Virus record (IMG/VR): IMGVR_UViG_3300036761_001580
Span: 69,198-133,197 of that record
Source: a virus
Strand: one strand, 5' to 3'
Length of the DNA stretch: 64,000 bases
Shown: piece by piece, positions 6,556 through 33,449 of the stretch
Layout of the letters: every line of letters starts with the position of its first letter
Numbering within the stretch: position 1 is the first letter of the stretch
Notes under the pieces: model-generated
What the model saw: the letters and a program-made list of their open reading frames with translations, nothing else
What the model was told of the DNA's origin: nothing
Databases searched by the model: none
Program-made: the position numbers and the translations under genes

Positions 6556-6557
6556 GG

Positions 6558-6791: not shown

Positions 6792-6798
6792 TGCCTGT

Positions 6799-7119: not shown

Positions 7120-7163
7120 GGTCCACCTTCCCTCGGTTGCGGCCGTTCGCTGTCCCTTGCCCC

Positions 7164-7192
7164 AATGTAACCACCGGCTAGCGACGGTCAAG
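7164..7192 (-). promoter_or_regulatory. class A promoter cassette
   Basis: ccccaatgtaacc ... ggtcaagggg + GGGCCGGTCGATTC upstream element. Confidence 0.55.
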
Positions 7193-7212
7193 GGGTGGGC
7201 CGGTCGATTCTC

Positions 7213-7677: not shown

Positions 7678-7722
7678 CGGAGTCTCCTTAGTTTGGGTGG
7701 GTAGTCGGCCCGCCTGGCTCCC

Positions 7723-7751
7723 AATGTAACGCTCGCTTTCATGCTGTCAAG
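7723..7751 (-). promoter_or_regulatory. class A promoter cassette (diverged spacer)
   Basis: cccaatgtaacg ... tgtcaagagg. Confidence 0.5.
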
Positions 7752-7754
7752 AGG

Positions 7755-8336: not shown

Positions 8337-8373
8337 GTGGTCCTCCTCGGTTGTTCGTTTCCCCTGGCTGGGA

Positions 8374-8402
8374 ATGTAACCACCGGTTTCAGGCTGTCAA
8401 GT
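8374..8402 (-). promoter_or_regulatory. class A promoter cassette
   Basis: gggaatgtaacc ... tgtcaagtgc. Confidence 0.5.
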
Positions 8403-8403
8403 G

Positions 8404-8541
8404 CTACTCCGGGTCAATCCCCTCCGCCGCTTCCACGAGGTCCTCGACAACCTCGTCCACCTCTTTCGACGTGAGGTCCTCCGGGGTTTCCAAGGCCGCC
8501 GCCGCGCGTCGGAGCAAGGCCGCGAGATCACGAGGCTTCAT
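8404..8541 (-). CDS. small acidic protein (~45 aa)
   Basis: ATG 8541 placed 5 nt after TAG of 8544..8789; the track's longer N-terminus overlaps the upstream gene. Confidence 0.4.
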   Translation of the reverse strand: MKPRDLAALLRRAAAALETPEDLTSKEVDEVVEDLVEAAEGIDPE

Positions 8542-8543
8542 GA

Positions 8544-8789
8544 CTACACCGTCTCCGGGTCGATCTCGACGGCGACCATCTTGTCCCCGTACTCGTCCAG
8601 GAGCTTCGCCAGATCGGACGCGAAGCGGACCGACGCCGACTCGTCGGTCATGCAAAACCGGACGCGCCCGTTGCGTATCGTGCGGACGACGACGTTGTGC
8701 ACCTTGGACCTATCCGAAAGCGTCTGCTCTTCCTCGTACAGATCAACGTGATCCGTGTGAACCGTATCCATGATCTTGAATCCGTCCAT
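8544..8789 (-). CDS. hypothetical protein (81 aa); first gene of leftward early arm
   Basis: ATG 8789 with ACGAGGAGGACAAC RBS directly downstream of the divergent class A promoter. Confidence 0.6.
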   Translation of the reverse strand: MDGFKIMDTVHTDHVDLYEEEQTLSDRSKVHNVVVRTIRNGRVRFCMTDESASVRFASDLAKLLDEYGDKMVAVEIDPETV

Positions 8790-8828
8790 GTTGTCCTCCT
8801 CGTTTGGTCGTTGCCCTGCCTACCGGGG

Positions 8829-8857
8829 AATGTAACCATGGGGAAAAGAGAGTCAAG
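8829..8857 (-). promoter_or_regulatory. class A promoter (leftward member of divergent pair)
   Basis: ggggaatgtaacc ... agtcaagcccc. Confidence 0.55.
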
Positions 8858-8861
8858 CCCC

Positions 8862-8889
8862 TTGACCTCCGAAAACCCGGTGTTACATT
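8862..8889 (+). promoter_or_regulatory. class A promoter (rightward member of divergent pair)
   Basis: ccccTTGACCtccgaaaacccggtgtTACATTgggg. Confidence 0.55.
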
Positions 8890-8930
8890 GGGGCAAGGCG
8901 GCCAGACTACCGCACAACAGGGAGGACGAG

Positions 8931-9155
8931 ATGGCGGATATGAAGTTCAAGAAAGAATGTATCACGAGGAGCGTTTGCCCATACTGCGGGAGTCGCAACA
9001 CGAAGGACGAGGGTGAAAGCCTCTATGAGGCAAACGAAGAGGACATCAAGCTGTACATCTGCGGGTGCCACGATTGCGGAAAGGAATGGCGCAACGTCTT
9101 CCGCCAGATCGACGTGATCGAGGGTGACGTGTACCCGGAGGTTGACGAGCCCTAG
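8931..9155 (+). CDS. small zinc-ribbon protein (74 aa); paralog of 12117..12329
   Basis: RBS GGGAGGACGAG-ATG; CPYCG...CGCHDCGKEW motif; conserved 5' leader. Confidence 0.65.
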   Translation: MADMKFKKECITRSVCPYCGSRNTKDEGESLYEANEEDIKLYICGCHDCGKEWRNVFRQIDVIEGDVYPEVDEP

Positions 9156-9159
9156 GCAC

Positions 9160-9187
9160 TTGACAGCCACTATCCTGTGGTTACATT
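9160..9187 (+). promoter_or_regulatory. class A promoter cassette
   Basis: cTTGACAgccactatcctgtggtTACATTgggg; leader near-identical to 8890-8930. Confidence 0.55.
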
Positions 9188-9228
9188 GGGGCAAGGCGGC
9201 ACGACTACCGCACAACAGGGAGGACGAC

Positions 9229-9411
9229 ATGGGAAAGAAGAAATCCAAGACGTTCGACGTCACGATCCGGGCAACGATCACGAAGACCATCACCGTCGAG
9301 GCCAAGGACGAAGACGAGGCCTGCGAGATCGCGCACGGGGAGTTCTCGGTGCTGAACGACGATGACCCCGAGGATTACGACGAGGAAACCGTCAACGTCG
9401 AAGAAGTCTGA
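9229..9411 (+). CDS. hypothetical small acidic protein (60 aa)
   Basis: RBS GGGAGGACGAC-ATG; GC3-rich. Confidence 0.55.
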   Translation: MGKKKSKTFDVTIRATITKTITVEAKDEDEACEIAHGEFSVLNDDDPEDYDEETVNVEEV

Positions 9412-9412
9412 C

Positions 9413-9610
9413 ATGACGAAACGAGCACAAAGGATAATCATCAGTCCCGAGCAAGAGGCCAGGGACGAGTACCTCTCGGCGCTCGCGACCTACCGGGAGG
9501 TCCGGCACGCGCCGGGCTCCGAGGACGAGGCGATCCGTGCCGTGCGAGCGGTCATGGATCGGGCCTATGACCTGTACGTCAAGACGTGCCACCCGAGGAG
9601 GGCAACATGA
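9413..9610 (+). CDS. hypothetical protein (~65 aa)
   Basis: ATG 3 nt after the previous TGA; GC3-rich. Confidence 0.5.
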   Translation: MTKRAQRIIISPEQEARDEYLSALATYREVRHAPGSEDEAIRAVRAVMDRAYDLYVKTCHPRRAT

Positions 9611-9861
9611 TCAAGAAGAAGCCGGAAGAGACGGGGATCGAGTTCCTCCGTCGTCTCGTAAGCGTGGCGAATTACACGAACGAGGAGGTGTTCGACGATC
9701 TCTCCGTCGAGGAGACGATCAAGCTCATCCGCGCGTGTTGGGATTCCGAGTTCGACATCTACGCAGACGCACTGTCGCCCAGCGAGAGGGCTTTCGCGGC
9801 GCGGACCGGTAAGCTGTCGAAGAAAGCCGTTGACCGGCTCAACAGCCTGTATGGGGACTAA
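9607..9861 (+). CDS. hypothetical protein (84 aa)
   Basis: ATGA overlap with upstream stop; RBS GAGGAGGG. Confidence 0.6.
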   Translation: MIKKKPEETGIEFLRRLVSVANYTNEEVFDDLSVEETIKLIRACWDSEFDIYADALSPSERAFAARTGKLSKKAVDRLNSLYGD

Positions 9862-9877
9862 AAGACCGCGCAACCCC

Positions 9878-9905
9878 TTGACACCCCGCAATCGATGGTT
9901 AGATT
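9878..9905 (+). promoter_or_regulatory. class A promoter cassette (-10 TAGATT)
   Basis: ccccTTGACAccccgcaatcgatggtTAGATTagggg. Confidence 0.5.
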
Positions 9906-9940
9906 AGGGGTACGAGGGCAACGCAACCGAGGAGGTCGAA

Positions 9941-10258
9941 ATGAGATCCGAAATGAAGAGTGCCGGACGCGCAGCGGCGGCCGTTCCGTTCGAGAAGGTG
10001 GAGCTGTCGAAGACGCTGGAAGCCGTGGCGTTCGTCCAGGTGTGCCTGGGGTGCGCTTACGACTCTCTCAAGTCGGGTGAGGTCGAGGACAACCCCGAGC
10101 CGCCCATGGACCTGGAGGGGATCGTGGAGGACATCAATCACGCTTGCGAGAAGCTCCAAAGGGAGATCCGCAAGCTCGACAGGAACACGCGCCTGGCGCT
10201 CGACATCGAGGTGGATCACACCTACGATCTCGTGCACCGCAACAGCCCGACGAGGTAG
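9941..10258 (+). CDS. hypothetical protein (105 aa)
   Basis: RBS GAGGAGGTCGAA-ATG. Confidence 0.65.
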   Translation: MRSEMKSAGRAAAAVPFEKVELSKTLEAVAFVQVCLGCAYDSLKSGEVEDNPEPPMDLEGIVEDINHACEKLQREIRKLDRNTRLALDIEVDHTYDLVHRNSPTR

Positions 10259-10269
10259 GGGAGGACGTC

Positions 10270-10545
10270 ATGAGCGGTTTCAATTGGGCAGGGTTCGTTA
10301 GCGTAATCCCCGAGGACATCACCCTCGTGGGCAACGCCAGGGGCAACATGAAGATCCTGGCGCAAGTCTTGGACGAGGGGTTCGAGGGCATGAAGCCGAT
10401 CTCCGAGGCGCGCAAGCGGGTGCTCGTGAGGAGCATCGAGAAGTTCACCATGGCGGCGACCGAGCTGAAACTGCTCTTGGAGGCGTTCTCCGCCGATCTG
10501 GAGTGCCGCGAGGCCGGGATCGACCCCACGGGCAACGAGGGCTAG
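10270..10545 (+). CDS. hypothetical protein (91 aa)
   Basis: RBS GGGGAGGACGTC-ATG; the track's upstream 42 aa are an Arg-rich artefact. Confidence 0.6.
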   Translation: MSGFNWAGFVSVIPEDITLVGNARGNMKILAQVLDEGFEGMKPISEARKRVLVRSIEKFTMAATELKLLLEAFSADLECREAGIDPTGNEG

Positions 10546-10563
10546 AAAGAGCCGAGTAGCCTC

Positions 10564-10591
10564 TTGACACCCCGCTAGGGGTGGTTACATT
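10564..10591 (+). promoter_or_regulatory. class A promoter cassette
   Basis: cctcTTGACAccccgctaggggtggtTACATTgggg. Confidence 0.55.
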
Positions 10592-10638
10592 GGGGATAGG
10601 CGGGATGACTACCCGCCGGCAACGACAAGGAGAACCCG

Positions 10639-11082
10639 ATGGACGAGAAGACGAAAATCCCGATGGATCTGCGGATCTTCATCGACGATGAGACGGAGTT
10701 CTACAACGGCATCCCGGACGGGGTGGGCAAGATCTTTTCGGCGCACCTCTTCGACGCGAACCTGGACGTGCACATCTGCTCGTTCCAGGCGAACAAGGAG
10801 TGCTACTACATCGGCCACACGTTCACCACGACGCGGGATATGACCGATGAGGAGCTGGAAGCGGCGGACGAGTACCTCCGGGAAGCGAACCGCGAGGAGC
10901 CGCGCGTCGACTACTTCGACGGCAAGATCAAGGGGCACCCCTATACGGTCGAGCCGCGCCCCAAGGCAGACGACCCCGAAGAGGCGCAGAGGCTTTACGA
11001 AGAGGTCATGGAGGAGCACATCGAGTACCTCGTCTGCAACTCCGAGACATGGGATTGTCTGGTCGGAAAGCCGGTCGAGTAG
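10639..11082 (+). CDS. hypothetical protein (147 aa)
   Basis: RBS AAGGAGAACCCG-ATG; leader stem-loop GGCGGG-atgACTAC-CCGCC. Confidence 0.7.
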   Translation: MDEKTKIPMDLRIFIDDETEFYNGIPDGVGKIFSAHLFDANLDVHICSFQANKECYYIGHTFTTTRDMTDEELEAADEYLREANREEPRVDYFDGKIKGHPYTVEPRPKADDPEEAQRLYEEVMEEHIEYLVCNSETWDCLVGKPVE

Positions 11083-11085
11083 CCC

Positions 11086-11113
11086 TTGACAGCCGCTCCC
11101 CGATGGTTACATT
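11086..11113 (+). promoter_or_regulatory. class A promoter cassette
   Basis: cccTTGACAgccgctccccgatggtTACATTgggg. Confidence 0.55.
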
Positions 11114-11147
11114 GGGGATAGGCGAGAAGAACAACGGGAGGGACATC

Positions 11148-11645
11148 ATGGACGCAAGGATGAAGGTCGCGAACGAGCTGAAGAAGGAGATCCGGCGATC
11201 CCTGGGCAACTACCCCAAGGTGACGAAGGTCGAGGTTCTCGGCCTGGAGAACGAGGGGCTCATGATCGCTGTCCGGTACCACACGACCGACGTCGTGAAG
11301 CTGTACCTGAACAAGGCGGGTTACGCGGTCATGTCGGTCGTGGTGACTTCGGGCGGGTGGATCTCGAAAACGACCGCCGAGCGGATCAACGCGGTGCTCC
11401 GCCACTTGAAGACGGGGTTCTTCGTGCGGTTCACCTACAAGCGGGAGACGTTCGCACGGGGCACCATGGGCCGCCAGATGGGCGACAGCCTGTACGACCA
11501 GAAGTTCACGCTCGTGGGACAGGGGATCGAGATGCCCTTCGAAGACGGGATGACGTTCAAGCGGGGCCGGGACGGGTTCAAGCTCACGTACCCCGGCAAG
11601 GCCGCGCAGAAGAGGCTCGCGAAGGTCGTCGTCGCGAAGAGGTAG
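11148..11645 (+). CDS. hypothetical protein (165 aa)
   Basis: RBS GGGAGGGACATC-ATG. Confidence 0.7.
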   Translation: MDARMKVANELKKEIRRSLGNYPKVTKVEVLGLENEGLMIAVRYHTTDVVKLYLNKAGYAVMSVVVTSGGWISKTTAERINAVLRHLKTGFFVRFTYKRETFARGTMGRQMGDSLYDQKFTLVGQGIEMPFEDGMTFKRGRDGFKLTYPGKAAQKRLAKVVVAKR

Positions 11646-11654
11646 GAGGACGCC

Positions 11655-11885
11655 ATGAAGAAGGTTATCGAAGTCAGCAAGGCGACAAAGGGTCAGATCT
11701 CGGTGCGGCTCGCGTTGCTCCGAGAGCAGGTAGAGACGCTCCGCGAAGACCTCGTGGTCGAGGACAGCGACAGCCAAGAGGCAAGCGACACCCTGGGGAC
11801 CATCCTCGACCTCATGATCGAGGCCGAGGGCTACCTGGACGCGGACGATCCGAACCAGGCAGAACACCTGGAGACGGGCGTCTAG
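11655..11885 (+). CDS. hypothetical acidic protein (76 aa)
   Basis: RBS GAGGTAGGAGGACGCC-ATG. Confidence 0.6.
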   Translation: MKKVIEVSKATKGQISVRLALLREQVETLREDLVVEDSDSQEASDTLGTILDLMIEAEGYLDADDPNQAEHLETGV

Positions 11886-12073
11886 TGCCACTCTTCATAG
11901 TGACGAAAAAGGAGATCTGGCGGCAGCGTGTCCTCGTCGAAGCCGAAGACGCAAACGAAGCCCGGTACAAAGCCGAGAAGGGCGAATCCGAGATCCATGA
12001 AGATCCACAGTACGAGGATGACCTCCTCGACAGGTTGTGGGCGGTAGAAGAGATTGAAGACCACACCGCTTGA
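11886..12073 (+). CDS. possible small protein (62 aa, GTG start)
   Basis: GTG immediately after TAG; GC3-rich acidic frame; stop TGA sits inside the next -35. Confidence 0.35.
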
Positions 12074-12097
12074 CAGTCACTCAGGGATGGTTACATT
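12070..12097 (+). promoter_or_regulatory. class A promoter cassette
   Basis: cgcTTGACAgtcactcagggatggtTACATTcc. Confidence 0.5.
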
Positions 12098-12116
12098 CCA
12101 AGCAGGAGGGACGAAC

Positions 12117-12329
12117 ATGGCGAAGATGAACTTCAAGGACGAGTGCCTGGCGAGCGGCGGATCGAAGTGCCCGTACTGCGGAAAGTACAACACCTGGGAG
12201 CACTCGATCACGGACAGCGACGACGAGGACGACGTCAAGAAGGTCACCGTCGAGTGCCACGATTGCGGCAAGGAGTGGACCGCCACCTTCCGCATCGAGG
12301 ACGTGACCGAAGTCGACGAGGAGGTCTGA
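12117..12329 (+). CDS. small zinc-ribbon protein (70 aa); paralog of 8931..9155
   Basis: RBS AGGAGGGACGAAC-ATG; CPYCGKYN...CHDCGKEW. Confidence 0.65.
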   Translation: MAKMNFKDECLASGGSKCPYCGKYNTWEHSITDSDDEDDVKKVTVECHDCGKEWTATFRIEDVTEVDEEV

Positions 12330-12330
12330 G

Positions 12331-12525
12331 ATGGCAACGAAGAAAACCATGCCGAAATGGCTCCGGAAGCTCTCGGCCGTGCAGAGGAAGCACCTCGCGG
12401 AGACGTGCGACGACGGGGTGACGCTTCGAGCATTCTGGAACAACCGCCAGTACCAGAAGGATCACTACATCGTATGCCGGGAATGCGAGGACATCGAGCA
12501 CCGGCTGACCGCCGAGAAGAGTTGA
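12331..12525 (+). CDS. hypothetical protein (64 aa)
   Basis: RBS CGAGGAGGTCTGAG-ATG; CRECEDIEH. Confidence 0.6.
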   Translation: MATKKTMPKWLRKLSAVQRKHLAETCDDGVTLRAFWNNRQYQKDHYIVCRECEDIEHRLTAEKS

Positions 12526-12535
12526 ACCCAGCCCC

Positions 12536-12563
12536 TTGACAGCCGCTCCCCGATGGTTACATT
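12536..12563 (+). promoter_or_regulatory. class A promoter cassette
   Basis: ccccTTGACAgccgctccccgatggtTACATTagggg. Confidence 0.55.
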
Positions 12564-12612
12564 AGGGGTAGGAGAGGCGAGCTGACTACTCGCACTGAAC
12601 AAGGAGAACATC

Positions 12613-12885
12613 ATGGACCTGAACAAGCTGATCGAGATCGTGGACGAGGGATACCCGGACGGGTTCGTGAAGCGGTGCTTCGACAACCCGAAGAAGGACC
12701 ACGGGGATACCCTGGCACTCTTCCTGGCCCGAGAGGTCAAGGACACGTTCGACGCGGACGCGACCGACGAGGCGCAGGTAGCCGAGGCGATCCGCGTCAT
12801 GGAGATGGCCCGGCGGGAGCTGGGAGACGTGCTCGTGGTCCTGGAGCGAGTCAAATTCACCAAGACCGGCAACGCGGTGAGGTAG
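12613..12885 (+). CDS. hypothetical protein (90 aa)
   Basis: Conserved leader hairpin GCGAG-ctgACTAC-tCGC + AACAAGGAGAAcatc-ATGGAC. Confidence 0.65.
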   Translation: MDLNKLIEIVDEGYPDGFVKRCFDNPKKDHGDTLALFLAREVKDTFDADATDEAQVAEAIRVMEMARRELGDVLVVLERVKFTKTGNAVR

Positions 12886-12889
12886 TCCG

Positions 12890-13135
12890 ATGGGCGAGGC
12901 ACGACGCCGAGCGGCAACCCGAGAAGAGCGCGCAGCTCAGAGCATCGCGCGCAAGGCTCGTGCCGAGGAGGCCAAGCGGGAAGACGCGCACAAGTGGTGG
13001 GAGGGCCTGACCGAAGAGGAGAAGGAATCCCAGCGGAAGGTGTGGCACGAGAAGGACAAGAAGCGAGCCAACGCGCGGCTGGTCATGGCGGCAGCAATGG
13101 GTCTGTTCGTCGGGGCAGATAGGGGGCTGAAATGA
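12890..13135 (+). CDS. hypothetical basic/coiled protein (81 aa)
   Basis: RBS GAGGTAG; Lys/Glu/Arg-rich. Confidence 0.55.
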   Translation: MGEARRRAATREERAAQSIARKARAEEAKREDAHKWWEGLTEEEKESQRKVWHEKDKKRANARLVMAAAMGLFVGADRGLK

Positions 13136-13353
13136 AACTGTGCCGCGACCAATTCGTAAAGAATGCATCGATAGGCCCCGATGCCCTCGTGGAGTTCTAT
13201 TGCACACGGAAAGCCGGTCATGCAGGGAAGCATTCCTGTGAGGTACAGAGCCTTCGTAGGGAGTCCGATAAAGGCTGGGTAAATGACGGATTCCCAATGG
13301 ACGACGTGAGTGACGGAGAGGGCACGCGCAAGGTGGGTATTCTTTCCTGGTAG
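13132..13353 (+). CDS. hypothetical protein (73 aa); start of a lower-GC patch
   Basis: ATGA overlap; local GC ~52%. Confidence 0.5.
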   Translation: MKLCRDQFVKNASIGPDALVEFYCTRKAGHAGKHSCEVQSLRRESDKGWVNDGFPMDDVSDGEGTRKVGILSW

Positions 13354-13359
13354 TAGCCC

Positions 13360-13387
13360 TTGACAGCCTCTCCCGAGTGGTTACATT
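13360..13387 (+). promoter_or_regulatory. class A promoter cassette
   Basis: cccTTGACAgcctctcccgagtggtTACATTcc. Confidence 0.5.
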
Positions 13388-13404
13388 CCAGGTAGGAGGA
13401 CAGC

Positions 13405-13562
13405 GTGGACACCGAGAAGAAACGACGTGCGAAGAGTGACAAGCTGGCGCTCGAAGAGCTGGTCGAGGAGATCGAGCCGGTAGAGCCGGTCGAGAAGAGG
13501 GTACGATCCTGGTTGCCGAAATTGGGTGACGTCCTCAACCTCCAGCCGACGAGAGCAAAGTG
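13405..13562 (+). CDS. possible small protein (52 aa, GTG start)
   Basis: RBS AGGTAGGAGGACAGC-GTG; below ORF-track size cutoff. Confidence 0.35.
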
Positions 13563-13799
13563 ACTTTGAAAGTCAAGATGCACCGTATCGTCCAAGGAGA
13601 CGACCTCTTAGAAAGAGCAGAGAAGCTCGGGCTCCCCGACGACTGCCAGCTCGCACTCATAGACGGACAATGGGCTCCGGCATTCCGTTGGGTTAGAGAA
13701 TATTACCTCCGCCGGGGTTCGTCGGATATCAGAAGTACGGCATGGGTTCTTATCAACGCCCACATCATAGAAGAGTATGAAGTCGAAGTGCAAGAATGA
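13560..13799 (+). CDS. hypothetical protein (79 aa)
   Basis: Overlapping start with previous stop; lower GC. Confidence 0.5.
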   Translation: MTLKVKMHRIVQGDDLLERAEKLGLPDDCQLALIDGQWAPAFRWVREYYLRRGSSDIRSTAWVLINAHIIEEYEVEVQE

Positions 13800-14104
13800 A
13801 ATCGAACGAGTGTATAGGTTGCGGATTTTGTTGCCGCAAAAGTCCGTGCAGTTTCTACCAGCTCGAAGATTGGGCAGCGTGGCACGGGTGCCCGCACCTC
13901 TTGTGGGACGGCACTCGGTGGGTGTGCGGAAAGTACGTCGAAGAGCCCGATACGAAGGTGAAAGAGCGTATGAAATTCTATCTCGCATTCGGCGCGGGTT
14001 GCAACTGCAATTTGAACACGTATAGGCGCACTTGCCACGTCCCGACACCGGAGGAACTGAAGGATGAAAAAGCCCTGCTTGACCGACTCCACAAGACCAA
14101 GTGA
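13796..14104 (+). CDS. hypothetical Cys-rich protein (102 aa)
   Basis: ATGA overlap; CIGCGFCC...CNCN pattern; lower GC (moron-like). Confidence 0.55.
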   Translation: MKSNECIGCGFCCRKSPCSFYQLEDWAAWHGCPHLLWDGTRWVCGKYVEEPDTKVKERMKFYLAFGAGCNCNLNTYRRTCHVPTPEELKDEKALLDRLHKTK

Positions 14105-14333
14105 GCCGGTCGTAAAGTCTCCCGGGGTCAATGTGCCCCCGGAATTCAAGGTCTTCATGATGCTCATGGCGCGGTCGTTCTCCGGGAGTGACTCCGTCTC
14201 CACGGCACTGAACCAACTGAGAAAACTCCTCACAGACAAGCACGGTCCCGAGTACGCAAATGCTTACGTGTACGAGCTAGCGCAAGCCTACGCTTCGAGG
14301 CGCTCGAAGTTCATGCAGGATTTCTGCGGTTAG
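14064..14333 (+). CDS. hypothetical protein (up to 89 aa; start uncertain)
   Basis: ORF overlaps previous gene by 40 nt; an internal ATG at ~14157 is an alternative start. Confidence 0.35.
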   Translation: MKKPCLTDSTRPSEPVVKSPGVNVPPEFKVFMMLMARSFSGSDSVSTALNQLRKLLTDKHGPEYANAYVYELAQAYASRRSKFMQDFCG

Positions 14334-14337
14334 CTCT

Positions 14338-14365
14338 TGACAGCCTCACTATAGTAGTTATATTC
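14338..14365 (+). promoter_or_regulatory. class A promoter cassette (-10 TATATT)
   Basis: ctcTTGACAgcctcactatagtagtTATATTccc. Confidence 0.5.
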
Positions 14366-19845: not shown

Positions 19846-19929
19846 CTATCTCCACCAATGCCAGAAGAAAAACACCACCCAAATCGCCGTACATAACAGC
19901 ACGACGGAGACCTGGATTTCGGTACTCAT
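19846..19929 (-). CDS. possible 27-aa hydrophobic peptide
   Basis: ATGA overlap with upstream stop; RBS GAGGAAG; MSTEIQVSVVLLCTAIWVVFFFWHWWR. Confidence 0.35.
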   Translation of the reverse strand: MSTEIQVSVVLLCTAIWVVFFFWHWWR

Positions 19930-20570
19930 AGCTTCCTCGGCGGCTCTTCTGTCCATTCCGACGCGGGAGGTGTAAGATCGGGTGGATCGTACTTGTTGCA
20001 TGGCAAGATCATCCCCAATTTGCAATCCTCACATTCGATGATACACGAGTTGTAGTTCTTGCAGCCCAGACCCGTCCGCACGACCAACAACTTCCTTCGA
20101 ACGTTTGCCAGTTGAGCCACCAGCCCAGCAACCTCCTGCACCGTCTGATCCTGCACTGTGACCGACCGGTCGCGGAGCACATCATGGATGGCTTCGATCT
20201 TCGCCCGGAACTCGGCCAACGATTCGCCGTTCAGATCTGCACGTGCCCGCTCGTGTTCCAACTCTCCCGCGAGACGGCACCGGAAGTCGTGTTCCCGCTG
20301 CCTATCGCTACGGCACTCCGACAACTCCTTTTCGGCCCTGTCTCGCTCCTGCTTCACGAACTCCCAATCGGATGTACGATCTGCAAGCGCGGATGTTAGC
20401 TCAGTGACCTCCTCGTGTATACCAACCAGGAGTTGGCAGGCGGCGAACACGGGTTCTTCTGCTTCGATTTCCTCCTGTGTCGCGTCCGGCTCGACACACG
20501 GGTCGGTGTCTCCCATCGAGATGTCTAATAGACTCACGACGTGCAAAATCCGATCTGCTAGTGTACTCAT
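19926..20570 (-). CDS. hypothetical protein (214 aa)
   Basis: GC3-rich ORF. Confidence 0.65.
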   Translation of the reverse strand: MSTLADRILHVVSLLDISMGDTDPCVEPDATQEEIEAEEPVFAACQLLVGIHEEVTELTSALADRTSDWEFVKQERDRAEKELSECRSDRQREHDFRCRLAGELEHERARADLNGESLAEFRAKIEAIHDVLRDRSVTVQDQTVQEVAGLVAQLANVRRKLLVVRTGLGCKNYNSCIIECEDCKLGMILPCNKYDPPDLTPPASEWTEEPPRKL

Positions 20571-20591
20571 CTCACTCCTCCTCTAATCGAC

Positions 20592-20819
20592 TCAGCCCCT
20601 GTCGGCAGCTTCCCAGTACAGCTCGTCTTCGCGTCGGTCGTACTCGTCCTGGGCAGCTTCGTCTCGGGCAGCTTGTACCTTGGCGCACGTCTCCTCGTAG
20701 GGGCAGTCCTCGGCACACGTCTCCTCGTAGGGGCAGTCCTCGCACATCTCACAAGGGTAGTAGCCCTCGGGGTGGCAGCGGGAGCAGTCGAGCGCACCGC
20801 AGCAGCAAGGTTCACGCAC
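20592..20819 (-). CDS. Cys-rich small protein (75 aa) with in-frame 30-bp tandem duplication
   Basis: CPYEETCA(E/K) repeated; DNA duplication 20686-20745. Confidence 0.55.
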   Translation of the reverse strand: MREPCCCGALDCSRCHPEGYYPCEMCEDCPYEETCAEDCPYEETCAKVQAARDEAAQDEYDRREDELYWEAADRG

Positions 20820-20822: not shown

Positions 20823-21623
20823 TCACCTCTCGATGATGGCGACGTAGAAGTACCCGCAGATCCGCAGGGCTTCCGCCACCTTCTCCGCGCCCTCGCGGCT
20901 GGAGAACTCGATCTCGCTGGGCTTCCCCTCGTAGAGGGTGTCCGTGATCTCCTTGGCGTCCTTCAGCCCGATATTGAGATGCTGGCGCAGCTCCTTGATC
21001 GCGTAGATCTGGGTCGAGGAAGGCTGACGCTGCGATCCCTCCACGCTCTTGTAGAGCCCGTCCGTCTTCGTGAGCTGGACGATGAACTTGGGGACCCGGG
21101 GGGCCTCGAAGCCGAACACCGTCTCGATGTACCCGAGATCCTGCATCGCCTGCTCCAAGGTCGCACCCTTCAGAGACGAAATGAGCAGGCTCAACGACAT
21201 GTCCGCGCGAGAGATTGCCGACTCCGCCGGGAGCATGTGGTCTACAGACGCTGGGCTGAGATCGAGCTTCTTGATCCCCACCACCCAGCTCGCGTACATC
21301 TGGAAGCGCCCTCTCAGATTGGCGATCTCGCTGGTCTTCCCCAACAGGGAGTACCTGTGCAACTGAAGATCGATCTGGTGACTTCTCTGGAGGTTGATCA
21401 GCTCGACTCGGTGGTCATCACGCTCCTGACTTCGGACTTGATTGCTGGTAGCCCAAGCCTCCGTCATGCACGAGAGCCGCCTGTCGAGATCCAGGTTGGC
21501 GAGGCTCACACGCTCGACCTCCTCTTTCAAGGACTCGATCTCCCTGTCGTAGTCGTCCCTCAGGATCTCCGAGAGCAGCCCATTGTCCTTCTTGGTCGTC
21601 TTCTTCTTCGTTGCCATACCCAC
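20823..21623 (-). CDS. protein with C-terminal ribosomal L7/L12 CTD-like domain (266 aa)
   Basis: C-term IKELRQHLNIGLKDAKEITDTLYEGKPSEIEFSSREGAEKVAEALRICG resembles bL12 CTD; class B promoter upstream. Confidence 0.6.
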   Translation of the reverse strand: MGMATKKKTTKKDNGLLSEILRDDYDREIESLKEEVERVSLANLDLDRRLSCMTEAWATSNQVRSQERDDHRVELINLQRSHQIDLQLHRYSLLGKTSEIANLRGRFQMYASWVVGIKKLDLSPASVDHMLPAESAISRADMSLSLLISSLKGATLEQAMQDLGYIETVFGFEAPRVPKFIVQLTKTDGLYKSVEGSQRQPSSTQIYAIKELRQHLNIGLKDAKEITDTLYEGKPSEIEFSSREGAEKVAEALRICGYFYVAIIER

Positions 21624-21656
21624 TCCTTGATAGCTTTAGCCCTGCTGAACTATATA

Positions 21657-21686
21657 GCCACTGTTGGGAAGGAAGTCAAGAAGTCA
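21657..21686 (-). promoter_or_regulatory. class B promoter (TTGACT-N18-TATATA on minus strand)
   Basis: revcomp: cttcTTGACTtccttcccaacagtggcTATATAgttc. Confidence 0.5.
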
Positions 21687-22718: not shown

Positions 22719-22747
22719 AATGTAACCACCCCAAGCGAGGTGTCAAG
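22719..22747 (-). promoter_or_regulatory. class A promoter cassette (isolated copy in late block, abutting IS right end)
   Basis: ccccaatgtaaccaccccaagcgaggtgtcaagacc. Confidence 0.5.
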
Positions 22748-24045
22748 ACCATTCGGATCGTGGTCACCGAAGTGAACTATCGTTGCTTACGCAACGATTT
22801 CCGCCTTCACCGGGACCCGCGACACGGAAGGCTTTCGCCCCCTGCGCCGACTGACAGTCCCTCCAGCGGCAGCCGCCCCAGCTCCTGAGGCAGTTACCGG
22901 AATCGCACCGGCCAAGATCATTCTCTTTGCTTCGTCTCGGATGTTGCACGCAGCGTTCTCGTCCCGGTCGTGTACGGACCCACAGTGCCGACAGGTCCAG
23001 TACCGTACCGACAACTTCATGCCTTCGTGAAGACACCCGCAAACGTTGCACATCTTCGTAGACGGATAGAAGCGGTTCGTCTTGATGAACCCCTTCCCCG
23101 CTCGCTCGGCCTTGTACTTCGCAAAGTTGGTGAACATTCCCCACCCAGCACTCGAAATTGCCTTTGCCAAGTTGGGGTTCTTCACCATTCCCTTCACATT
23201 CAAGTCCTCGACAGCGATCACTTGGTTCTCGTTGACCAACCGTCTGGACAGCTTGTGAACGAAGTCCTTCCGAGCGTTCTTTACCCGTTCGTGTACACGG
23301 GCTACCAGCTTCCGTGCCTGATCCCGGCTCTTCGAGCCCTTCTTCTTCCGTGACAGCTTCTGCTGCTTGCGCTTCAAGTTCCTTTCTGCCTGCTCCAGGT
23401 GCTTGGGGTTTTGAAAGTGGCTGCCTGTGCTTGTTACTGCGAAGTCCTTCAACCCCACGTCCATTCCGAGCACCGATCCCTCGAACGACACCACGGGCAT
23501 CGGAGCGCCGTCGTCGGTGAGTACTAATGCGTAGTAGTGGCCGCACGGTTCGCACTTCACCGTGACCGTCTTGATCTCGCCCACGATGGGTCGATGAATG
23601 ACGGCCTTGAACCATCCGATCTTCGGTAGAAAGACGCGCTTGGCATCGACCTTTACACACTGGGGAAACTGGATCGACTTCGGACCGAACTTGCTCTTGA
23701 AGCGTGGATATTTCCCCCGACGCTCAAAGAAGTTCACGAAGGCCCGCGACAGGTTGCGTAAAGACTGCTGAAGCATCTGAGCGTTAGCTTCTTTCAGCCA
23801 TTCGTACTCTTCTTTAAGAACTGGAAGACGTGCTGACATGCCCTCGTACCCAAGACCCTTACCAGTCTCCCTATACAGACGTTGCGTCTCGGCCAACGCA
23901 TCATTCCACACCCAGCGGGAGCATCCAAATTGCCGCGCCAACACTTGTCCCTGACATGCGTTTGGGTACAGACGAATTCGAGTAGCAGACAACATTGATT
24001 ACAGTATATCTAATTATCTGCAAAGTGCAACTCTTTTCCAGTACA
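22748..24045 (-). mobile_element. IS200/IS605-family TnpB-only insertion sequence (~1.3 kb)
   Basis: tnpB ORF; GC ~54% vs ~63% flank; right-end hairpins cgttgcTTAcgcaacg (stop codon in loop) and gacca-N9-tggtc; AT-rich left end 23996-24045. Confidence 0.6.
22787..23995 (-). CDS. tnpB: TnpB (OrfB_IS605 RuvC-like RNA-guided nuclease family), 402 aa
   Basis: Family-typical RuvC-like motifs (GMDVGLKDF, VAVEDLNVKGM) and C-terminal zinc finger (CNVCGC...CRHCG, RDENAACNI). Confidence 0.9.
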   Translation of the reverse strand: MLSATRIRLYPNACQGQVLARQFGCSRWVWNDALAETQRLYRETGKGLGYEGMSARLPVLKEEYEWLKEANAQMLQQSLRNLSRAFVNFFERRGKYPRFKSKFGPKSIQFPQCVKVDAKRVFLPKIGWFKAVIHRPIVGEIKTVTVKCEPCGHYYALVLTDDGAPMPVVSFEGSVLGMDVGLKDFAVTSTGSHFQNPKHLEQAERNLKRKQQKLSRKKKGSKSRDQARKLVARVHERVKNARKDFVHKLSRRLVNENQVIAVEDLNVKGMVKNPNLAKAISSAGWGMFTNFAKYKAERAGKGFIKTNRFYPSTKMCNVCGCLHEGMKLSVRYWTCRHCGSVHDRDENAACNIRDEAKRMILAGAIPVTASGAGAAAAGGTVSRRRGRKPSVSRVPVKAEIVA

Positions 24046-30746: not shown

Positions 30747-33449
30747 CTACTCGGGCTTCCGAGCCTTCTTGCCGGCGGCCTCCTCGGGCTTCTCGGACCT
30801 GCCGAGCCCCTTGCCGATCCTCTCGATGAGGCTGTCGATGCCCAGCCCGCCGAACCTGGACTTGAGCAGCTCGACGACGTCCTTGTCCTCGAACATCGCC
30901 AGCGGGCCGAGCGCCGTCGCCAGCGTCCCCGCCGTGTTGCTCTCCGCCAGCATCCTGAGGGTCGCGATGAGCTGCGGATCCACGGCCTCGCCGAGGACCT
31001 TCGCCTTCTCGGCCTCGGCCACGAGCAGCTTGATCTGGAGGTCGATCTCCTGGGTCCTCGCCCCGATGCGGAACTCGAAGTTCTCCTCCTCCTTGGTGAG
31101 GTTGCTGGTGAACTCGGCCTTGTCGATGACGATGCCCTTCTCGACCTCCTCCAGCCTGCCCTCCAGGTGAGCCAGAGCTTTGGTGTGCTCGATGGCCTCC
31201 ATCTCCTGGGCCCTCTTGAGCGCGTCGATGGCGAAGCCCTCCCGGGTCTTCGCCAGCGTATCGCGGATCTTCGCCGCGGTCGCTTCACCCTCGGCCTTGG
31301 TCTCCTCTTCGTTCAGGCTGAGCGCCGTCAGCTCCTCGGTCCTCAGGACGCGGGCCTTGGCCTCCTCGATCTCCAGGGCATCGATGAGGGCCTTGCGCGC
31401 CCTAGCGTCGAGCTTGGCGGCCAGGGACTGGTCGGCCAGCTGGACCTTGTGCACCTCGACGTCGTACACCTTCATGGAGTTCTCGGAGAAGTAGAGCCCC
31501 TTGCGCTCGCCGTTCTCGACCTTCGCCCCCAGGATGATGTCCCGGATGATGTTGATGGCGTTGCCGTAGAAGTCCCGGATCGAGATCGCCTGGACGGCGT
31601 TCTTCAGCCGGCTCCGGGCGTGGTCGCAGAGGAACTTCACGTAGTTCTCCACGTCGAACCACTTCGCCTTCTGCTCGCCGTCGAAGTCCACCCGGTAGGA
31701 CAGCTTGATGTGGACCGGGCACATGTCCTTGGTCTCGACAGCGACGACGTCGGAGACGATGTTGTTCCTGGCCCGCAGGTAGACCGTCTCGATGAGCTTG
31801 TCAGACGTCTTCGGCGTCCCCGTGGACAGACTCAGCGGCTCCAGGGTCTCGTCGTAGTCGAGCAGCAGGGTCGTCGGCCCCTCGACCACGCGGCGGGTGC
31901 CGTCCTTCTTGACGACCATGACGGCGTACCCGTTCCACACGTTGACGGTGACCACCCCGTCGTACTTGCTGTCGAGGGTGAGGGTGCGCGGCGCGTTGTA
32001 GCGGGTGGCCCGGTCGAACTCGTCACCACCGATGCCCTCCGCCACGTTGCCGAAGCCCTCCGGAGCCACAGCCATGTCGAGGAGCATGGAAGAAGAGAAG
32101 ACCGCACTGGCTGTCGCTGCCGCCATGTTGACCGAGGAGCCGCCCTTGTCGAAACCACGGGAGGTCATCTGACGGCGGACGGCCGCGTCCTCCACGTAGG
32201 TCTGGGAGTTGTCGCTGATCAGATTCATCAGCTCCGCGTTGAACTGCGCGGCGACCGTGTTGCCGGGGTAGTACAGCTGGACCTGCTTCTGGGAGAGGAT
32301 CCTCCGCACGATGACCTCGGTGCGGGGGTCGGGCAGCATCATCTTCGGCCCCTTGGTGGTCTCGATCTTGCCACCCATGCGGTCGAGGACGTACCGCCCC
32401 TCACCCTCGGGGATGATGACGGCGTGGTGCCGGTCCTTGCCGTCGTACCGGATGACGGCGTGCTCCGGCCTCGGGAAGTAGATCTTCTGCTCCTTGCCGG
32501 TGATGAACAGCTCGTCGCCCTCGCTGTACTTCTTCCCGCCCTCCTCGTAGGCCTTGATGACCTTGATGTAGAGGCCGGAGATCTCGTTCAGCTCGATGGC
32601 CCGGAACTTCTTCGCGGCCACGCCCTTGGCGGTCTTGTCCTCCACGAACCACTGCGTGGGCTTCGGGAACACCACCGCCGGCCCGCGGACGTACTCCTTG
32701 TTCCCATCCTCGTCCTGGAGGATGCAGTATTGGAGCTGCTCCAGGGTGATCGCGCTCTGGACGAAGTCAGCCGTGCCGGACGTGGTGTTGCCCATCTGAG
32801 CGACCTCCACTCCGTCTGGCGGGATGTAGAAGTGGACCTTGGTCCCTTTGACGACGAAGAGCTGCCCGATGGGGAGCGCGGCGGCGAGGCTCGTGGTGGA
32901 GTCGGGCACGTCCTTGCTCTCGTTCCCGGACTTCGCGGGCTTCTCGATCTTGTCGAGACCGTCGTAGATGGACAGGTCCGCCGGGCGGTTCTTCAGGGCC
33001 TTCACGAAGAGATCGGTGTCGTAGACCCGGACCATGAGGTACTGGTTGGACCTCAGGGTGTGGCCCTTGATCACCTTCACCATCTGGCCGGGCCAGAGCG
33101 CGAAGGAGTCGGGACCGGAGATGTTGACCTTGCGGCCGATGTCGAGCCCGGCGACGGTGAGATCGTTGATCCCCTTCTCCGGATGCTTCTGCTTGGTGGC
33201 CGGGTTCTTGATGTGGCAGTACCAGCCCTCCGGGATCACGACGAACCGCTGGATGGCGGCGCTGCTGCCGGCGGGCATGAAGCGCTTCTTCTCGTTGTCC
33301 CACACCACGAGCTGATCCGTGTTGGACAAGCTGTGCTTGTAGGGCCCCACCACGACGCTGACGATACCCTTCGTCTTGTCGAGATAGAAGGTGAACTCGT
33401 TGGGAGCCAGGACCAACTCGGCTTCTCGGACGGGGACTTGCTCGGTCAT
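30747..33449 (-). CDS. major vault protein (MVP) homolog, ~900 aa
   Basis: N-terminal MVP-repeat-like motifs (VGPYKHSL, RFVVIPEGWYCHIKNP), shoulder-like ETKDMCPVHIKLSYRVDFD, long C-terminal coiled coil; probable start M13 with AGGAGA RBS; class B promoter. Confidence 0.8.
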   Translation of the reverse strand: MTEQVPVREAELVLAPNEFTFYLDKTKGIVSVVVGPYKHSLSNTDQLVVWDNEKKRFMPAGSSAAIQRFVVIPEGWYCHIKNPATKQKHPEKGINDLTVAGLDIGRKVNISGPDSFALWPGQMVKVIKGHTLRSNQYLMVRVYDTDLFVKALKNRPADLSIYDGLDKIEKPAKSGNESKDVPDSTTSLAAALPIGQLFVVKGTKVHFYIPPDGVEVAQMGNTTSGTADFVQSAITLEQLQYCILQDEDGNKEYVRGPAVVFPKPTQWFVEDKTAKGVAAKKFRAIELNEISGLYIKVIKAYEEGGKKYSEGDELFITGKEQKIYFPRPEHAVIRYDGKDRHHAVIIPEGEGRYVLDRMGGKIETTKGPKMMLPDPRTEVIVRRILSQKQVQLYYPGNTVAAQFNAELMNLISDNSQTYVEDAAVRRQMTSRGFDKGGSSVNMAAATASAVFSSSMLLDMAVAPEGFGNVAEGIGGDEFDRATRYNAPRTLTLDSKYDGVVTVNVWNGYAVMVVKKDGTRRVVEGPTTLLLDYDETLEPLSLSTGTPKTSDKLIETVYLRARNNIVSDVVAVETKDMCPVHIKLSYRVDFDGEQKAKWFDVENYVKFLCDHARSRLKNAVQAISIRDFYGNAINIIRDIILGAKVENGERKGLYFSENSMKVYDVEVHKVQLADQSLAAKLDARARKALIDALEIEEAKARVLRTEELTALSLNEEETKAEGEATAAKIRDTLAKTREGFAIDALKRAQEMEAIEHTKALAHLEGRLEEVEKGIVIDKAEFTSNLTKEEENFEFRIGARTQEIDLQIKLLVAEAEKAKVLGEAVDPQLIATLRMLAESNTAGTLATALGPLAMFEDKDVVELLKSRFGGLGIDSLIERIGKGLGRSEKPEEAAGKKARKPE

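What the first reader, a model, noticed from the sequence alone, without database searches (positions are those of the whole stretch)
20823..21623. Protein carrying a ribosomal L7/L12 C-terminal-domain-like module
The last ~50 aa (IKELRQHLNIGLKDAKEITDTLYEGKPSEIEFSSREGAEKVAEALRICG) follow the bL12 CTD pattern (IKxVRxxTGLGLKEAKDLVESAPxxxKEGVSKEEAEELKKKLEEAGA). That domain recruits EF-Tu, EF-G and IF2 on the ribosome. Fused to a ~215-aa unrelated N-terminal region in a phage protein, it could tether or sequester translational GTPases. The gene has its own class B promoter.
Basis: partly seen in the sequence, partly recalled or inferred. Interest (0 to 1): 0.6.

Follow-up and report, generated by a model that had tools for sequence, protein, structure and literature searches.

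The report
Phage rod protein with bL12 head
A gene in a very large uncultured phage encodes a long helical rod ending in a real, diverged copy of the ribosomal stalk domain (bL12 C-terminal domain) that contacts translation GTPases; phage proteins with this domain are already known, so this is a new example and not a new principle.

Summary
The ORF at 20823-21617 (-) is 264 aa; the true start is ATG 21617, not GTG 21623. Its C-terminus is a bL12 (L7/L12) C-terminal domain.

- **Sequence:** the Pfam PF00542 match is below threshold for this protein (20.3 vs 25.9 bits). A family profile against a bL12 alignment gives 96.7% probability, E 3.4e-10.
- **Extent:** the domain spans aa 178-264, not the last 50 aa, and carries an 18-aa inserted loop.
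- **Factor-contact residues:** those on helices 4-5 (E. coli V66, I69, K70, R73, G79-K84) are kept, invariant in the family, and under strong purifying selection. K95, which contacts uL11, is lost.
- **Upstream parts:** a Lys-rich tail, a ~105-residue helix with heptad periodicity, and a conserved two-helix hairpin. The hairpin aligns collinearly with the bL12 N-terminal domain, but only at P~0.03, which is inconclusive.
- **Distribution:** the family is confined to one clade of huge phages (a 212-kb IMG/VR contig).

Phage bL12 domains inside larger proteins were described by Mizuno et al. 2019. I read this as a new member of that kind, probably an adaptor that contacts host translational GTPases. 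Binding is untested. Sequestration is unlikely because the CTD-factor affinity is weak.

The parts
20823..21617 (-). Gene for the 264-aa protein (stop codon 20823-20825; start ATG 21615-21617)
   Evidence: ORF list and sequence. The ATG is conserved in L001/L003, the GTG at 21623 is not. GC3 0.86. Seven homologues at 93-40% identity. dN/dS 0.27-0.49.
21651..21679 (-). Sigma-70-like promoter candidate, TTGACT-17 nt-TATATA ('class B')
   Evidence: Exact pattern match; none found in 100 shuffles. Both hexamers are identical in L001/L003 and three spacer bases differ. The same type lies upstream of the tmRNA (34793-34819) and of the gene at 44275-44742. No transcription data.
21623..21628 (-). Ribosome-binding site AAGGAG, 5 nt before the ATG
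   Evidence: Read from the sequence; conserved in L001/L003.
21585..21617 (-). aa 1-11: Lys-rich, disordered N-terminal tail (MATKKKTTKKD)
   Evidence: pLDDT <50. Basic in all eight family members.
21267..21584 (-). aa 12-117: one long helix. It starts with an invariant motif (GLLSEILxDxxDKEIExL, aa 13-30), has a variable middle, and shows heptad periodicity at both ends
   Evidence: AF2 helix 12-117, pLDDT 85-97. Invariant columns. Heptad score 0.7 at aa 22-56 and 0.4-0.6 at aa 85-115. Weak Pfam coiled-coil hits in relatives. dS 0.6-0.8 against L001, which points to a recombinant module.
21102..21227 (-). aa 131-172: conserved two-helix hairpin ending in FGFEA; possible diverged bL12 N-terminal domain
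   Evidence: Helices 131-149 and 154-160, pLDDT 56-74. The segment TLEQAMQxLGYxETVxGFE is nearly invariant. hhalign to the bL12 NTD is ungapped over 36 of 37 columns, score 12.3, P 0.025; 12 of 300 column shuffles reach it. No Pfam PF16320 hit.
20826..21086 (-). aa 178-264: complete bL12-type C-terminal domain (beta1 178-184, helix 4 203-214, helix 5 218-229, beta2 234-238, helix 6 241-254, beta3 257-263)
20931..21011 (-). aa 203-229: helices 4-5, the surface that contacts translational GTPases in bL12
   Evidence: I204, I207, K208, R211, G217, L218, K219, D220, A221, K222 correspond to E. coli V66, I69, K70, R73, G79, L80, K81, E82, A83, K84. Most are invariant in the family (the E. coli sequence was verified). 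dN/dS 0-0.045.
21012..21065 (-). aa 185-202: family-specific 18-aa loop inserted between beta1 and helix 4, with invariant L188, Y189, G194, P199, S201, T202
   Evidence: Alignment. Low pLDDT, 56-58. Absent from cellular bL12.

Best explanation
The gene encodes a diverged, phage-specific derivative of ribosomal stalk protein bL12. A complete bL12-type C-terminal domain sits at the end of a flexible, probably dimeric helical rod. The rod consists of a basic tail, a ~105-residue helix with coiled-coil heptads, and a conserved hairpin.

The most likely mechanism is that the C-terminal domain uses its retained helix 4/helix 5 face to make the same weak, transient contact with host translational GTPases (EF-Tu, EF-G, IF2, RF3) that bL12 makes. 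The N-terminal modules would fix the protein to a partner. The effect would be to recruit or position factors, as an adaptor or extra 'arm', and not to titrate them.

- **Shown:** domain identity, fold, conservation of the contact residues, purifying selection, restriction to a clade of huge phages, and a promoter-like site of its own type.
- **Inferred:** GTPase contact, dimerisation, and the anchoring partner.
For: - **Contact surface kept:** mapped onto PMC3505967 and PMC5887453; invariant across 40%-identity relatives; dN/dS 0-0.045.
- **Rod:** (helix 12-117; heptads).
- **Context:** the window carries a tmRNA with the same promoter type. Huge phages are known to carry L7/L12, tmRNA and other translation genes (PMC7162821).
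- **Precedent:** phage bL12 domains in larger proteins keep the factor-contact residues. A peptide of one such protein was identified by mass spectrometry in purified 70S ribosome preparations, although the tagged version could not be affinity-purified with ribosomes (PMC6375957).
Against: - No interaction data exist for this protein.
- The query's own Pfam score is below threshold.
- K95, which pairs with uL11 D63 on the ribosome (PMC3505967), is replaced by I/V or a gap. K65 is Q.
- The same helix 4-5 motif occurs in hundreds of non-ribosomal bacterial proteins, many of them membrane-anchored tandem repeats of unknown role. Conservation of these residues therefore need not mean GTPase binding.
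- The N-terminal modules have no detectable homologues, so the anchor is unknown.
Confidence: 0.45

Rival explanations
1. Stalk replacement on the ribosome. The hairpin (aa 131-172) is a diverged bL12 N-terminal domain. The protein dimerises and docks on helix alpha8 of host bL10 in place of a host bL12 dimer. That would give the ribosome a nearly hinge-less stalk arm with a long extra rod, changing factor recruitment during infection.
For: - hhalign puts the hairpin on the bL12 NTD over 36 of 37 columns without gaps, collinear with the CTD, with FGFEA on FGV(S/T)A. P is 0.025, and 12 of 300 shuffles reach the score.
- The full-length alignment runs from aa 140 to 255 against bL12 1-122.
- Foldseek aligns full-length viral L7/L12 (132-133 aa) over 129-150 columns, and 1dd3_A over 166 columns.
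- The hairpin is among the most conserved segments but has low pLDDT as a monomer, as expected for a segment that folds on a partner.
- About 12 of 70 viral bL12-like genes in IMG/VR are full length, so phages do acquire whole rplL genes.
Against: - The NTD match is not significant on its own and adds almost nothing to the total score (58.1 vs 57.6).
- No PF16320 hit for six hairpin segments or for four full-length relatives.
- The linker to the CTD is about 5 residues, against about 20 in bL12. From memory, not checked here: hinge deletions inactivate E. coli L7/L12.
- K95, the uL11 contact, is lost.
Confidence: 0.15
2. Repurposed interaction module. The bL12-type domain is used as a generic protein-binding head for a partner unrelated to translation, as may be the case for the many non-ribosomal PF00542 proteins. 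The rod would serve some phage-specific structure or regulatory complex.
For: - 548 profile hits are mostly non-ribosomal proteins with 2-6 helix 4-5 repeats, often behind a transmembrane helix, or six full CTDs fused to LRV repeats.
- Viral proteins place the domain next to many different partner domains.
- The family-specific conserved 18-aa loop and the loss of K95 suggest a changed interface.
- The fold is shared with ClpS, an adaptor for a different machine.
Against: - The residues retained are precisely the charged, surface-exposed ones implicated in factor contact (K70, R73, K81, E82, K84), not only the core ones.
- No alternative partner is suggested by neighbouring genes: the flanking genes have no recognisable function, and the gene immediately downstream differs between relatives.
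Confidence: 0.3
3. ClpS-like adaptor. The C-terminal domain delivers N-degron substrates to, or binds, a Clp-type unfoldase.
Against: - ClpS and the bL12 CTD share one fold.
- Sequence identity to ClpS is 10-17%, against 30% to bL12.
- hhalign to E. coli ClpS gives 1.2% probability on a misregistered 12-residue stretch.
- No Pfam ClpS hit.
- My own eyeball alignment against the ClpS sequence recalled from memory: the N-degron pocket residues (NDDxT, His66) are not present, and the position matching His66 is an invariant Leu/Ile.
Confidence: 0.03

Closest known systems
Phage-encoded bL12-domain proteins (Mizuno et al. 2019, Nat Commun 10:752, PMC6375957): e.g. Ralstonia phage RSB3 (98 aa), Dinoroseobacter phage DFL12phi1 (106 aa), Salmonella phage FSL SP-076 (418 aa), Erwinia phage Ea9-2 (724 aa). 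Also L7/L12 in huge phages (Al-Shayeb et al. 2020, PMC7162821).
   Same: Virus-encoded. PF00542-type domain about 30% identical to cellular bL12, with the factor-contact residues kept. The domain is often embedded in a larger polypeptide with unrelated flanks, and is found in huge phages alongside tmRNA and other translation genes. The query CTD gives weak tblastn matches to Ralstonia phage RSJ2 (E 3e-3) and to Curtobacterium phage Commonplace gp92, annotated 'ribosomal protein L7/L12' (E 0.07).
   Different: No significant whole-protein similarity to any cultured-phage protein. The N-terminal tail, rod and hairpin have no homologues outside the family. There is an 18-aa insert in the domain and K95 is lost.
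Cellular ribosomal protein bL12 (L7/L12; Pfam PF16320 + PF00542)
   Same: CTD fold and sequence profile. The helix 4-5 factor-contact residues. Possibly the collinear order of two-helix hairpin, linker, CTD.
   Different: 264 aa against about 120-130. About 130 extra N-terminal residues. The NTD is not demonstrable. The hinge is about 5 residues instead of about 20 Ala/Gly/Pro-rich ones. K65 and K95 are not kept. The gene is not in an rplJL operon.
Uncultured-virus small-protein family found here in IMG/VR (loci L116, L123, L124, L130, L142; 125-146 aa)
   Same: These are the closest CTD sequences: 34% identity over aa 178-256, covering beta1 and the loop. They share the 'D-x-L-x-x-G-K' turn after helix 5 and a G-[FY] before the last strand.
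   Different: Their N-terminal part is a different ~60-aa helical domain. They have no rod, no basic tail and a truncated last strand.
Bacterial non-ribosomal PF00542 repeat proteins (e.g. P0011, P0014, P0033: TM helix plus 2-6 copies of KIEAIKxxRexTGLGLKEAKDxVE; P0019: six full CTDs plus LRV repeats)
   Same: The same helix 4-5 motif; P0033 has 'KIYAIKELRDHTG', close to the query's 'QIYAIKELRQHLN'.
   Different: Mostly only the two helices, tandemly repeated, and membrane-anchored. The query has a single complete domain and no TM segment. Their function is unknown.
ClpS (N-degron adaptor of ClpAP)
   Different: No profile similarity. Pocket residues absent by my own alignment.

Membership tests
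bL12 (ribosomal protein L7/L12) | C-terminal domain with beta-alpha-alpha-beta-alpha-beta fold | tested here: met
bL12 (ribosomal protein L7/L12) | Sequence match to Pfam PF00542 at or above the gathering score (25.9 bits) | tested here: inconclusive
   Query 20.3 bits, below threshold. Relatives score 16.8-26.0 bits and only P0007 passes. Profile-profile comparison: 96.7% probability, E 3.4e-10.
bL12 (ribosomal protein L7/L12) | Conserved factor-contact residues on helices 4 and 5 (E. coli 66-70, 73, 79-85) | tested here: met
   I204, I207, K208, R211, G217, L218, K219, D220, A221, K222. Residue roles from PMC3505967 and PMC5887453.
bL12 (ribosomal protein L7/L12) | N-terminal dimerisation and bL10-binding domain (PF16320) | tested here: inconclusive
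   No Pfam hit at E<=10. hhalign of the hairpin against the NTD: full-length ungapped alignment, P 0.025, 12 of 300 shuffles reach it.
bL12 (ribosomal protein L7/L12) | Flexible ~20-residue Ala/Gly/Pro-rich hinge between the domains | tested here: not met
   About 5 residues (PRVPK) lie between FGFEA and strand beta1.
bL12 (ribosomal protein L7/L12) | Lys95 contact with uL11 | tested here: not met
   Aligned to I/V236 or to a gap. Role of K95 from PMC3505967.
bL12 (ribosomal protein L7/L12) | Incorporation into the 50S stalk; stimulation of factor GTPase | not testable with these tools
   Needs biochemistry.
Phage bL12-domain proteins (Mizuno et al. 2019) | Encoded on a viral genome | tested here: met
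   The syntenic 212-kb contig is an IMG/VR UViG. The window carries Tad2-like, Lar and RusA genes. Caveat: no structural genes were identified in the window.
Phage bL12-domain proteins (Mizuno et al. 2019) | bL12 CTD-type domain with conserved factor-contact residues, alone or inside a larger polypeptide | tested here: met
   Definition from PMC6375957.
ClpS | Profile similarity to ClpS | tested here: not met
   hhalign 1.2% probability. No PF02617 hit.
ClpS | N-degron pocket residues (NDDxT, His66) | not tested
   No tool call tested this. In my own eyeball alignment against the E. coli ClpS sequence recalled from memory, the position matching His66 is the invariant Leu/Ile at aa 228 (column).
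ClpS | ClpS-like fold | tested here: met

The most novel reading that the evidence does not exclude
The last ~125 residues are a whole, strongly diverged bL12: an NTD hairpin, a hinge cut to about 5 residues, and the CTD. A phage-specific basic tail and a ~15-nm coiled-coil rod have been added in front.

On this reading the protein docks on host bL10 in place of host bL12 dimers. It would convert the stalk into a phage-controlled, hinge-less arm and re-tune or gate factor recruitment during infection. This would be a direct structural takeover of the ribosomal GTPase-recruiting stalk by a virus.
Probability: 0.12. Interest if true: 0.75.

Novelty: new member of a known kind. Interest (0 to 1): 0.36.

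Why it matters
Phage-encoded ribosomal-protein domains are known, but their roles are almost untested. For bL12, only weak ribosome association of one N4-like phage protein has been reported. This family offers a compact and tractable case:

- a single complete CTD with the factor-contact face intact but the uL11 contact lost;
- placement on a rod with a possible remnant of the stalk-docking domain;
- a promoter type shared with the phage's tmRNA.

Showing whether it binds translational GTPases on or off the ribosome would say what phage bL12 domains are for. It might also explain the hundreds of non-ribosomal bacterial proteins that carry the same helix 4-5 motif. As it stands, this is a well-supported annotation and not a surprise.

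Tried and rejected
- **Cultured-phage relatives.** DNA and protein searches of INPHARED with the gene, its surroundings and a 1029-aa neighbour found nothing. The CTD alone gave only weak hits.
- **Isolate or MAG genomes.** A GTDB scan with the family alignment found nothing, so there is no prophage or host link.
- **Host from the adjacent TnpB.** The best matches are only 57-59% identical (Methylobacter and Nitrosomonas MAGs) or 50-55% (cyanobacteria). No host call is possible.
- **PF16320 (bL12 NTD) in the hairpin.** No hit for six hairpin segments or for four full-length relatives. My first hhalign, with a Thermotogota-dominated template, gave P 0.17. A richer template improved it to 0.025, which is still inconclusive.
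- **ClpS reading.** Rejected on sequence.
- **Internal start at Met128**, which would give a bL12-sized product. Rejected because the Met is not conserved.
- **Shared N-terminal targeting motif in other proteins of the window.** None found.
- **Function from neighbours.** The flanking genes have no Pfam hits. The gene immediately downstream is not conserved between the window and L001.
- **PHROGs.** Only three unnamed families matched weakly, on helix 4-5.
- **The typed bL12 sequences** were checked. T. maritima is 100% identical to P0156. E. coli is identical to PDB 3j7z_6. The B. subtilis and M. tuberculosis sequences used in the alignments are from memory and unverified.

Full report
**1. 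The ORF.**
- The minus-strand ORF 20823..21623 is real.
- Its codon-position GC (0.56/0.38/0.86) is that of a coding frame in this ~60% GC window.
- The listed GTG is probably not the start. An AAGGAG lies 5 nt before the ATG at 21617. Two relatives keep the ATG while the GTG is mutated. The product is therefore 264 aa.
- A search of 5.8 billion proteins found seven homologues at 93-40% identity, all of similar length and all from metagenomes. JGI had already auto-named one of them 'ribosomal protein L7/L12'.
- An exhaustive profile search of 1.84 billion cluster representatives added only fragments of the same family: P0008, P0009, P0010. The family is small.

**2. Is the bL12 resemblance real?** Yes.
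- Pfam PF00542 matches aa 204-254 at E 7e-4, but at 20.3 bits it is below the 25.9-bit threshold.
- Four other family members hit the same model, and P0007 passes the threshold.
- A family profile searched against all PDB sequences returns essentially only bL12 chains.
- Profile-profile comparison gave 59% probability against E. coli bL12 alone. Against 15 bL12 sequences it gave 87%. Against a more diverse template of 15 cellular and 10 viral full-length bL12 it gave 96.7%, E 3.4e-10.
- AlphaFold2 on the family alignment gives strand 178-184, helices 203-214 and 218-229, strand 234-238, helix 241-254 and strand 257-263. When aa 120-264 are modelled alone, pLDDT is 86-94.
- So the module is the complete CTD, aa 178-264, with an 18-residue family-specific loop between beta1 and helix 4. 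It is not just the last 50 residues.

**3. ClpS.**
- Identity to ClpS is 10-17%. hhalign to E. coli ClpS gives 1.2% probability. There is no Pfam ClpS hit.
- In my own alignment against the ClpS sequence recalled from memory, the N-degron pocket residues are absent.
- I reject ClpS membership.

**4. The functional surface.**
- The family keeps V66(I), I69, K70, R73, G79, L80, K81, E82(D), A83 and K84. Most are invariant from 93% down to 40% identity.
- Residues 66-70 and 80-85 are those that shift on titration with EF-G and EF4. V66-V68, K70, L80 and E82 contact the EF-G G' domain (PMC3505967, PMC5887453).
- Nei-Gojobori estimates against three relatives give dN/dS 0.27-0.49 for the gene and 0-0.045 for helices 4-5. 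That is 9 synonymous against 1 non-synonymous difference.
- Two bL12 residues are not kept. K65 is Q. K95, which forms the salt bridge to uL11 D63 on the ribosome, aligns with I/V or a gap.

**5. The rest of the protein.**
- aa 1-11 are a Lys-rich disordered tail, present in all members.
- aa 12-117 are predicted as one helix at pLDDT 85-97. It begins with an invariant motif (GLLSEILxDxxDKEIExL). Heptad periodicity is strong at aa 22-56 and 85-115, and the middle is polar and variable with indels.
- A flexible linker of variable length follows (aa 118-130).
- aa 131-172 form a two-helix hairpin. Its second half (TLEQAMQxLGYxETVxGFE) is among the most conserved parts of the protein, yet it is modelled at low confidence.
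- The N-terminal modules have no homologue outside the family, and no other protein in the window shares the N-terminal motif.

**6. Is the hairpin a bL12 N-terminal domain?**
- By eye, it matches the bL12 NTD in hydrophobic pattern, in the Thr that caps helix 2, and in the FG(V/F)x(A) ending.
- Pfam PF16320 does not detect it.
- hhalign chooses exactly that register: 36 of 37 NTD columns, ungapped, collinear with the CTD. The score is only 12.3, with P 0.17 on a narrow template and 0.025 on the richer one. Twelve of 300 column shuffles reach it, and other 52-residue windows of the protein give only 6-17-column matches.
- In the full-length comparison the alignment extends from aa 140 to 255 against bL12 1-122. 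The total score barely changes (58.1 vs 57.6).
- Foldseek aligns full-length viral L7/L12 proteins over 129-150 columns of the aa 120-264 model.
- I call this suggestive and unresolved.
- If it is an NTD, the hinge has shrunk from about 20 to about 5 residues.

**7. Genomic setting.**
- The window is syntenic with a 211,982-bp JGI contig that IMG/VR lists as a viral genome. It is also syntenic with shorter contigs carrying more distant family members. The conserved order is DUF7168 protein, GDSL lipase, several unknown genes, this gene.
- The window has no match in cultured phages. No structural gene was recognised.
- It does carry Tad2-like, Lar, RusA, SbcCD-like and methyltransferase genes, plus a tmRNA and a tRNA-Pro.
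- The gene is preceded by TTGACT-17-TATATA at 21651-21679. This site lies in a 57-nt gap after the upstream gene. Its hexamers are conserved in relatives.
- The same TTGACWTCCT...TATA type occurs only three times in the window. The other two are in front of the tmRNA and of the gene at 44275-44742.
- A different and far more abundant promoter type dominates 2.9-14.4 kb.
- Within the gene, divergence is mosaic. Against L001 the CTD has dS 0.05, while the rod has dS 0.6-0.8. This indicates recombination between modules.

**8. What is already known.**
- Mizuno et al. 2019 (PMC6375957) found bL12 domains in seven cultured phages and in viral metagenomes.
- They noted about 30-40% identity to cellular bL12 and conservation of the residues that contact uL11, EF-G and EF-Tu. 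They also noted that the domain is usually embedded in larger polypeptides of up to 724 aa, with homologues that lack it.
- A peptide of the FSL SP-076 protein was found in purified 70S preparations. Tagged protein could not be used to pull down ribosomes.
- Al-Shayeb et al. 2020 (PMC7162821) list L7/L12 and tmRNA among huge-phage translation genes.
- My own scan of IMG/VR with a bL12 alignment found 98 viral loci, of which 80 were kept and 70 were tabulated. About 12 are full-length bL12-like genes. Many are 100-150-aa proteins with a CTD or only helices 4-5 behind different N-terminal domains. A few are larger proteins, including a 498-aa coiled-coil protein with one helix 4-5 motif.
- The query CTD is closest (34% over aa 178-256) to a family of 125-146-aa viral proteins that share its 'D-x-L-x-x-G-K' turn.
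- The helix 4-5 motif also occurs in hundreds of bacterial non-ribosomal proteins, often as membrane-anchored tandem repeats.

**9. Mechanism.**
- The best-supported reading is an adaptor. A probably dimeric rod presents a bL12-type head that can make the weak, transient contact with translational GTPases.
- Titration of factors is unlikely. The Kd is 0.1-0.4 mM for the isolated CTD (PMC3505967). The factors are also very abundant, which I state from general knowledge.
- Two questions remain open, and no computation available here answers them. The first is whether the protein sits on the ribosome, through the hairpin or the basic tail, or elsewhere. The second is whether the head has been redirected to another partner.
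- I give 0.45 to GTPase contact in general. Of that, about 0.12-0.15 goes to true stalk replacement. I give 0.3 to a repurposed, non-translational role, and 0.03 to a ClpS-like role.

**10. Verdict.** This is a new, architecturally distinctive member of a known kind, and interest is moderate.

Noticed in passing
window 33554-33630 (-), 34385-34750 (-), 34793-34819 (-): A tRNA-Pro(TGG) and a full-length tmRNA (Rfam RF00023, 74 bits; tag ADADVIPFPKMAVPSLQRAA). The tmRNA is preceded by the same rare promoter type (TTGACATCCT-N13-TATATA) as the bL12-like gene. A third copy at 44785-44811 precedes an unknown 155-aa gene (44275-44742).
   Followed up: partly
window 2967-14364, plus 16856, 22719-22746, 33498, 41403: At least 24 copies of a highly regular promoter-like element, TTGACA-N13-GGTTACATT, often with conserved flanks. 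They lie on the minus strand from 2.9 to 8.9 kb and on the plus strand from 8.9 to 14.4 kb, always upstream of short genes. This looks like a divergent early-gene region. Shuffles give 0.3 copies on average.
   Followed up: partly
window 30747-33485 (-): A 912-aa protein with a strong Major Vault Protein shoulder domain (PF11978, E 1.8e-29) and a vault repeat (PF17795, E 1.4e-8). This is unusual for a phage.
   Followed up: no
window 22787-23995 (-): An IS605-family TnpB (OrfB_IS605 + Cas12f1-like TNB + HTH). It lies between the GDSL-lipase gene and the genes upstream of the bL12-like gene. No such gene is called at the corresponding place in the syntenic 212-kb contig L001, so it is probably a recent insertion. 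The best genomic relatives are only 50-59% identical.
   Followed up: partly
window 46215-47639 (-) and 60975-62321 (-): Two more weak, sub-threshold resemblances to translation or proteostasis factors. One is a ribosome modulation factor (RMF)-like stretch at aa 316-353 of a 474-aa protein (24.2 vs 27.9 bits). The other is a trigger-factor C-terminal-like stretch in a 448-aa protein (21.9 vs 22.7 bits). A DnaJ-domain hit occurs somewhere among the 83 ORFs scanned.
   Followed up: no
window 19926-20819 (-) vs L001 10781-11611: The gene immediately downstream of the bL12-like gene differs between relatives. In the window there is a Cys-rich 75-aa ORF (20592-20819), then two in-frame stops, then a 214-aa ORF in the same frame. 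L001 has an unrelated 276-aa gene at this position. Together with the mosaic dS inside the bL12-like gene, this marks a recombination hot spot.
   Followed up: partly
proteins P0011-P0155; e.g. P0011, P0014, P0015, P0033, P0047, P0019: Hundreds of bacterial proteins carry 2-6 tandem copies of only helices 4-5 of the bL12 CTD (KIEAIKxxRExTGLGLKEAKDxVE), usually after an N-terminal transmembrane helix. P0019 has six complete CTDs fused to LRV/HEAT repeats. All pass the PF00542 threshold. I found no described function.
   Followed up: partly
IMG/VR loci L116, L123, L124, L130, L142: A family of 125-146-aa proteins from uncultured viruses. It has a conserved N-terminal helical domain (…GINFMRSITEAYGTDEGMKLWD…IFFAMLTG) followed by a bL12-CTD-like domain. 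These are the closest sequence relatives of the query's CTD.
   Followed up: no
window, coordinates not mapped (among the 83 ORFs of alignment A3): Anti-defence and DNA-handling genes typical of phages: Tad2-like (E 1e-19), Lar restriction alleviation, RusA, DpnD/PcfM-like, a Metallophos/SbcCD-like nuclease, and a DNA methyltransferase (phrog_799).
   Followed up: no
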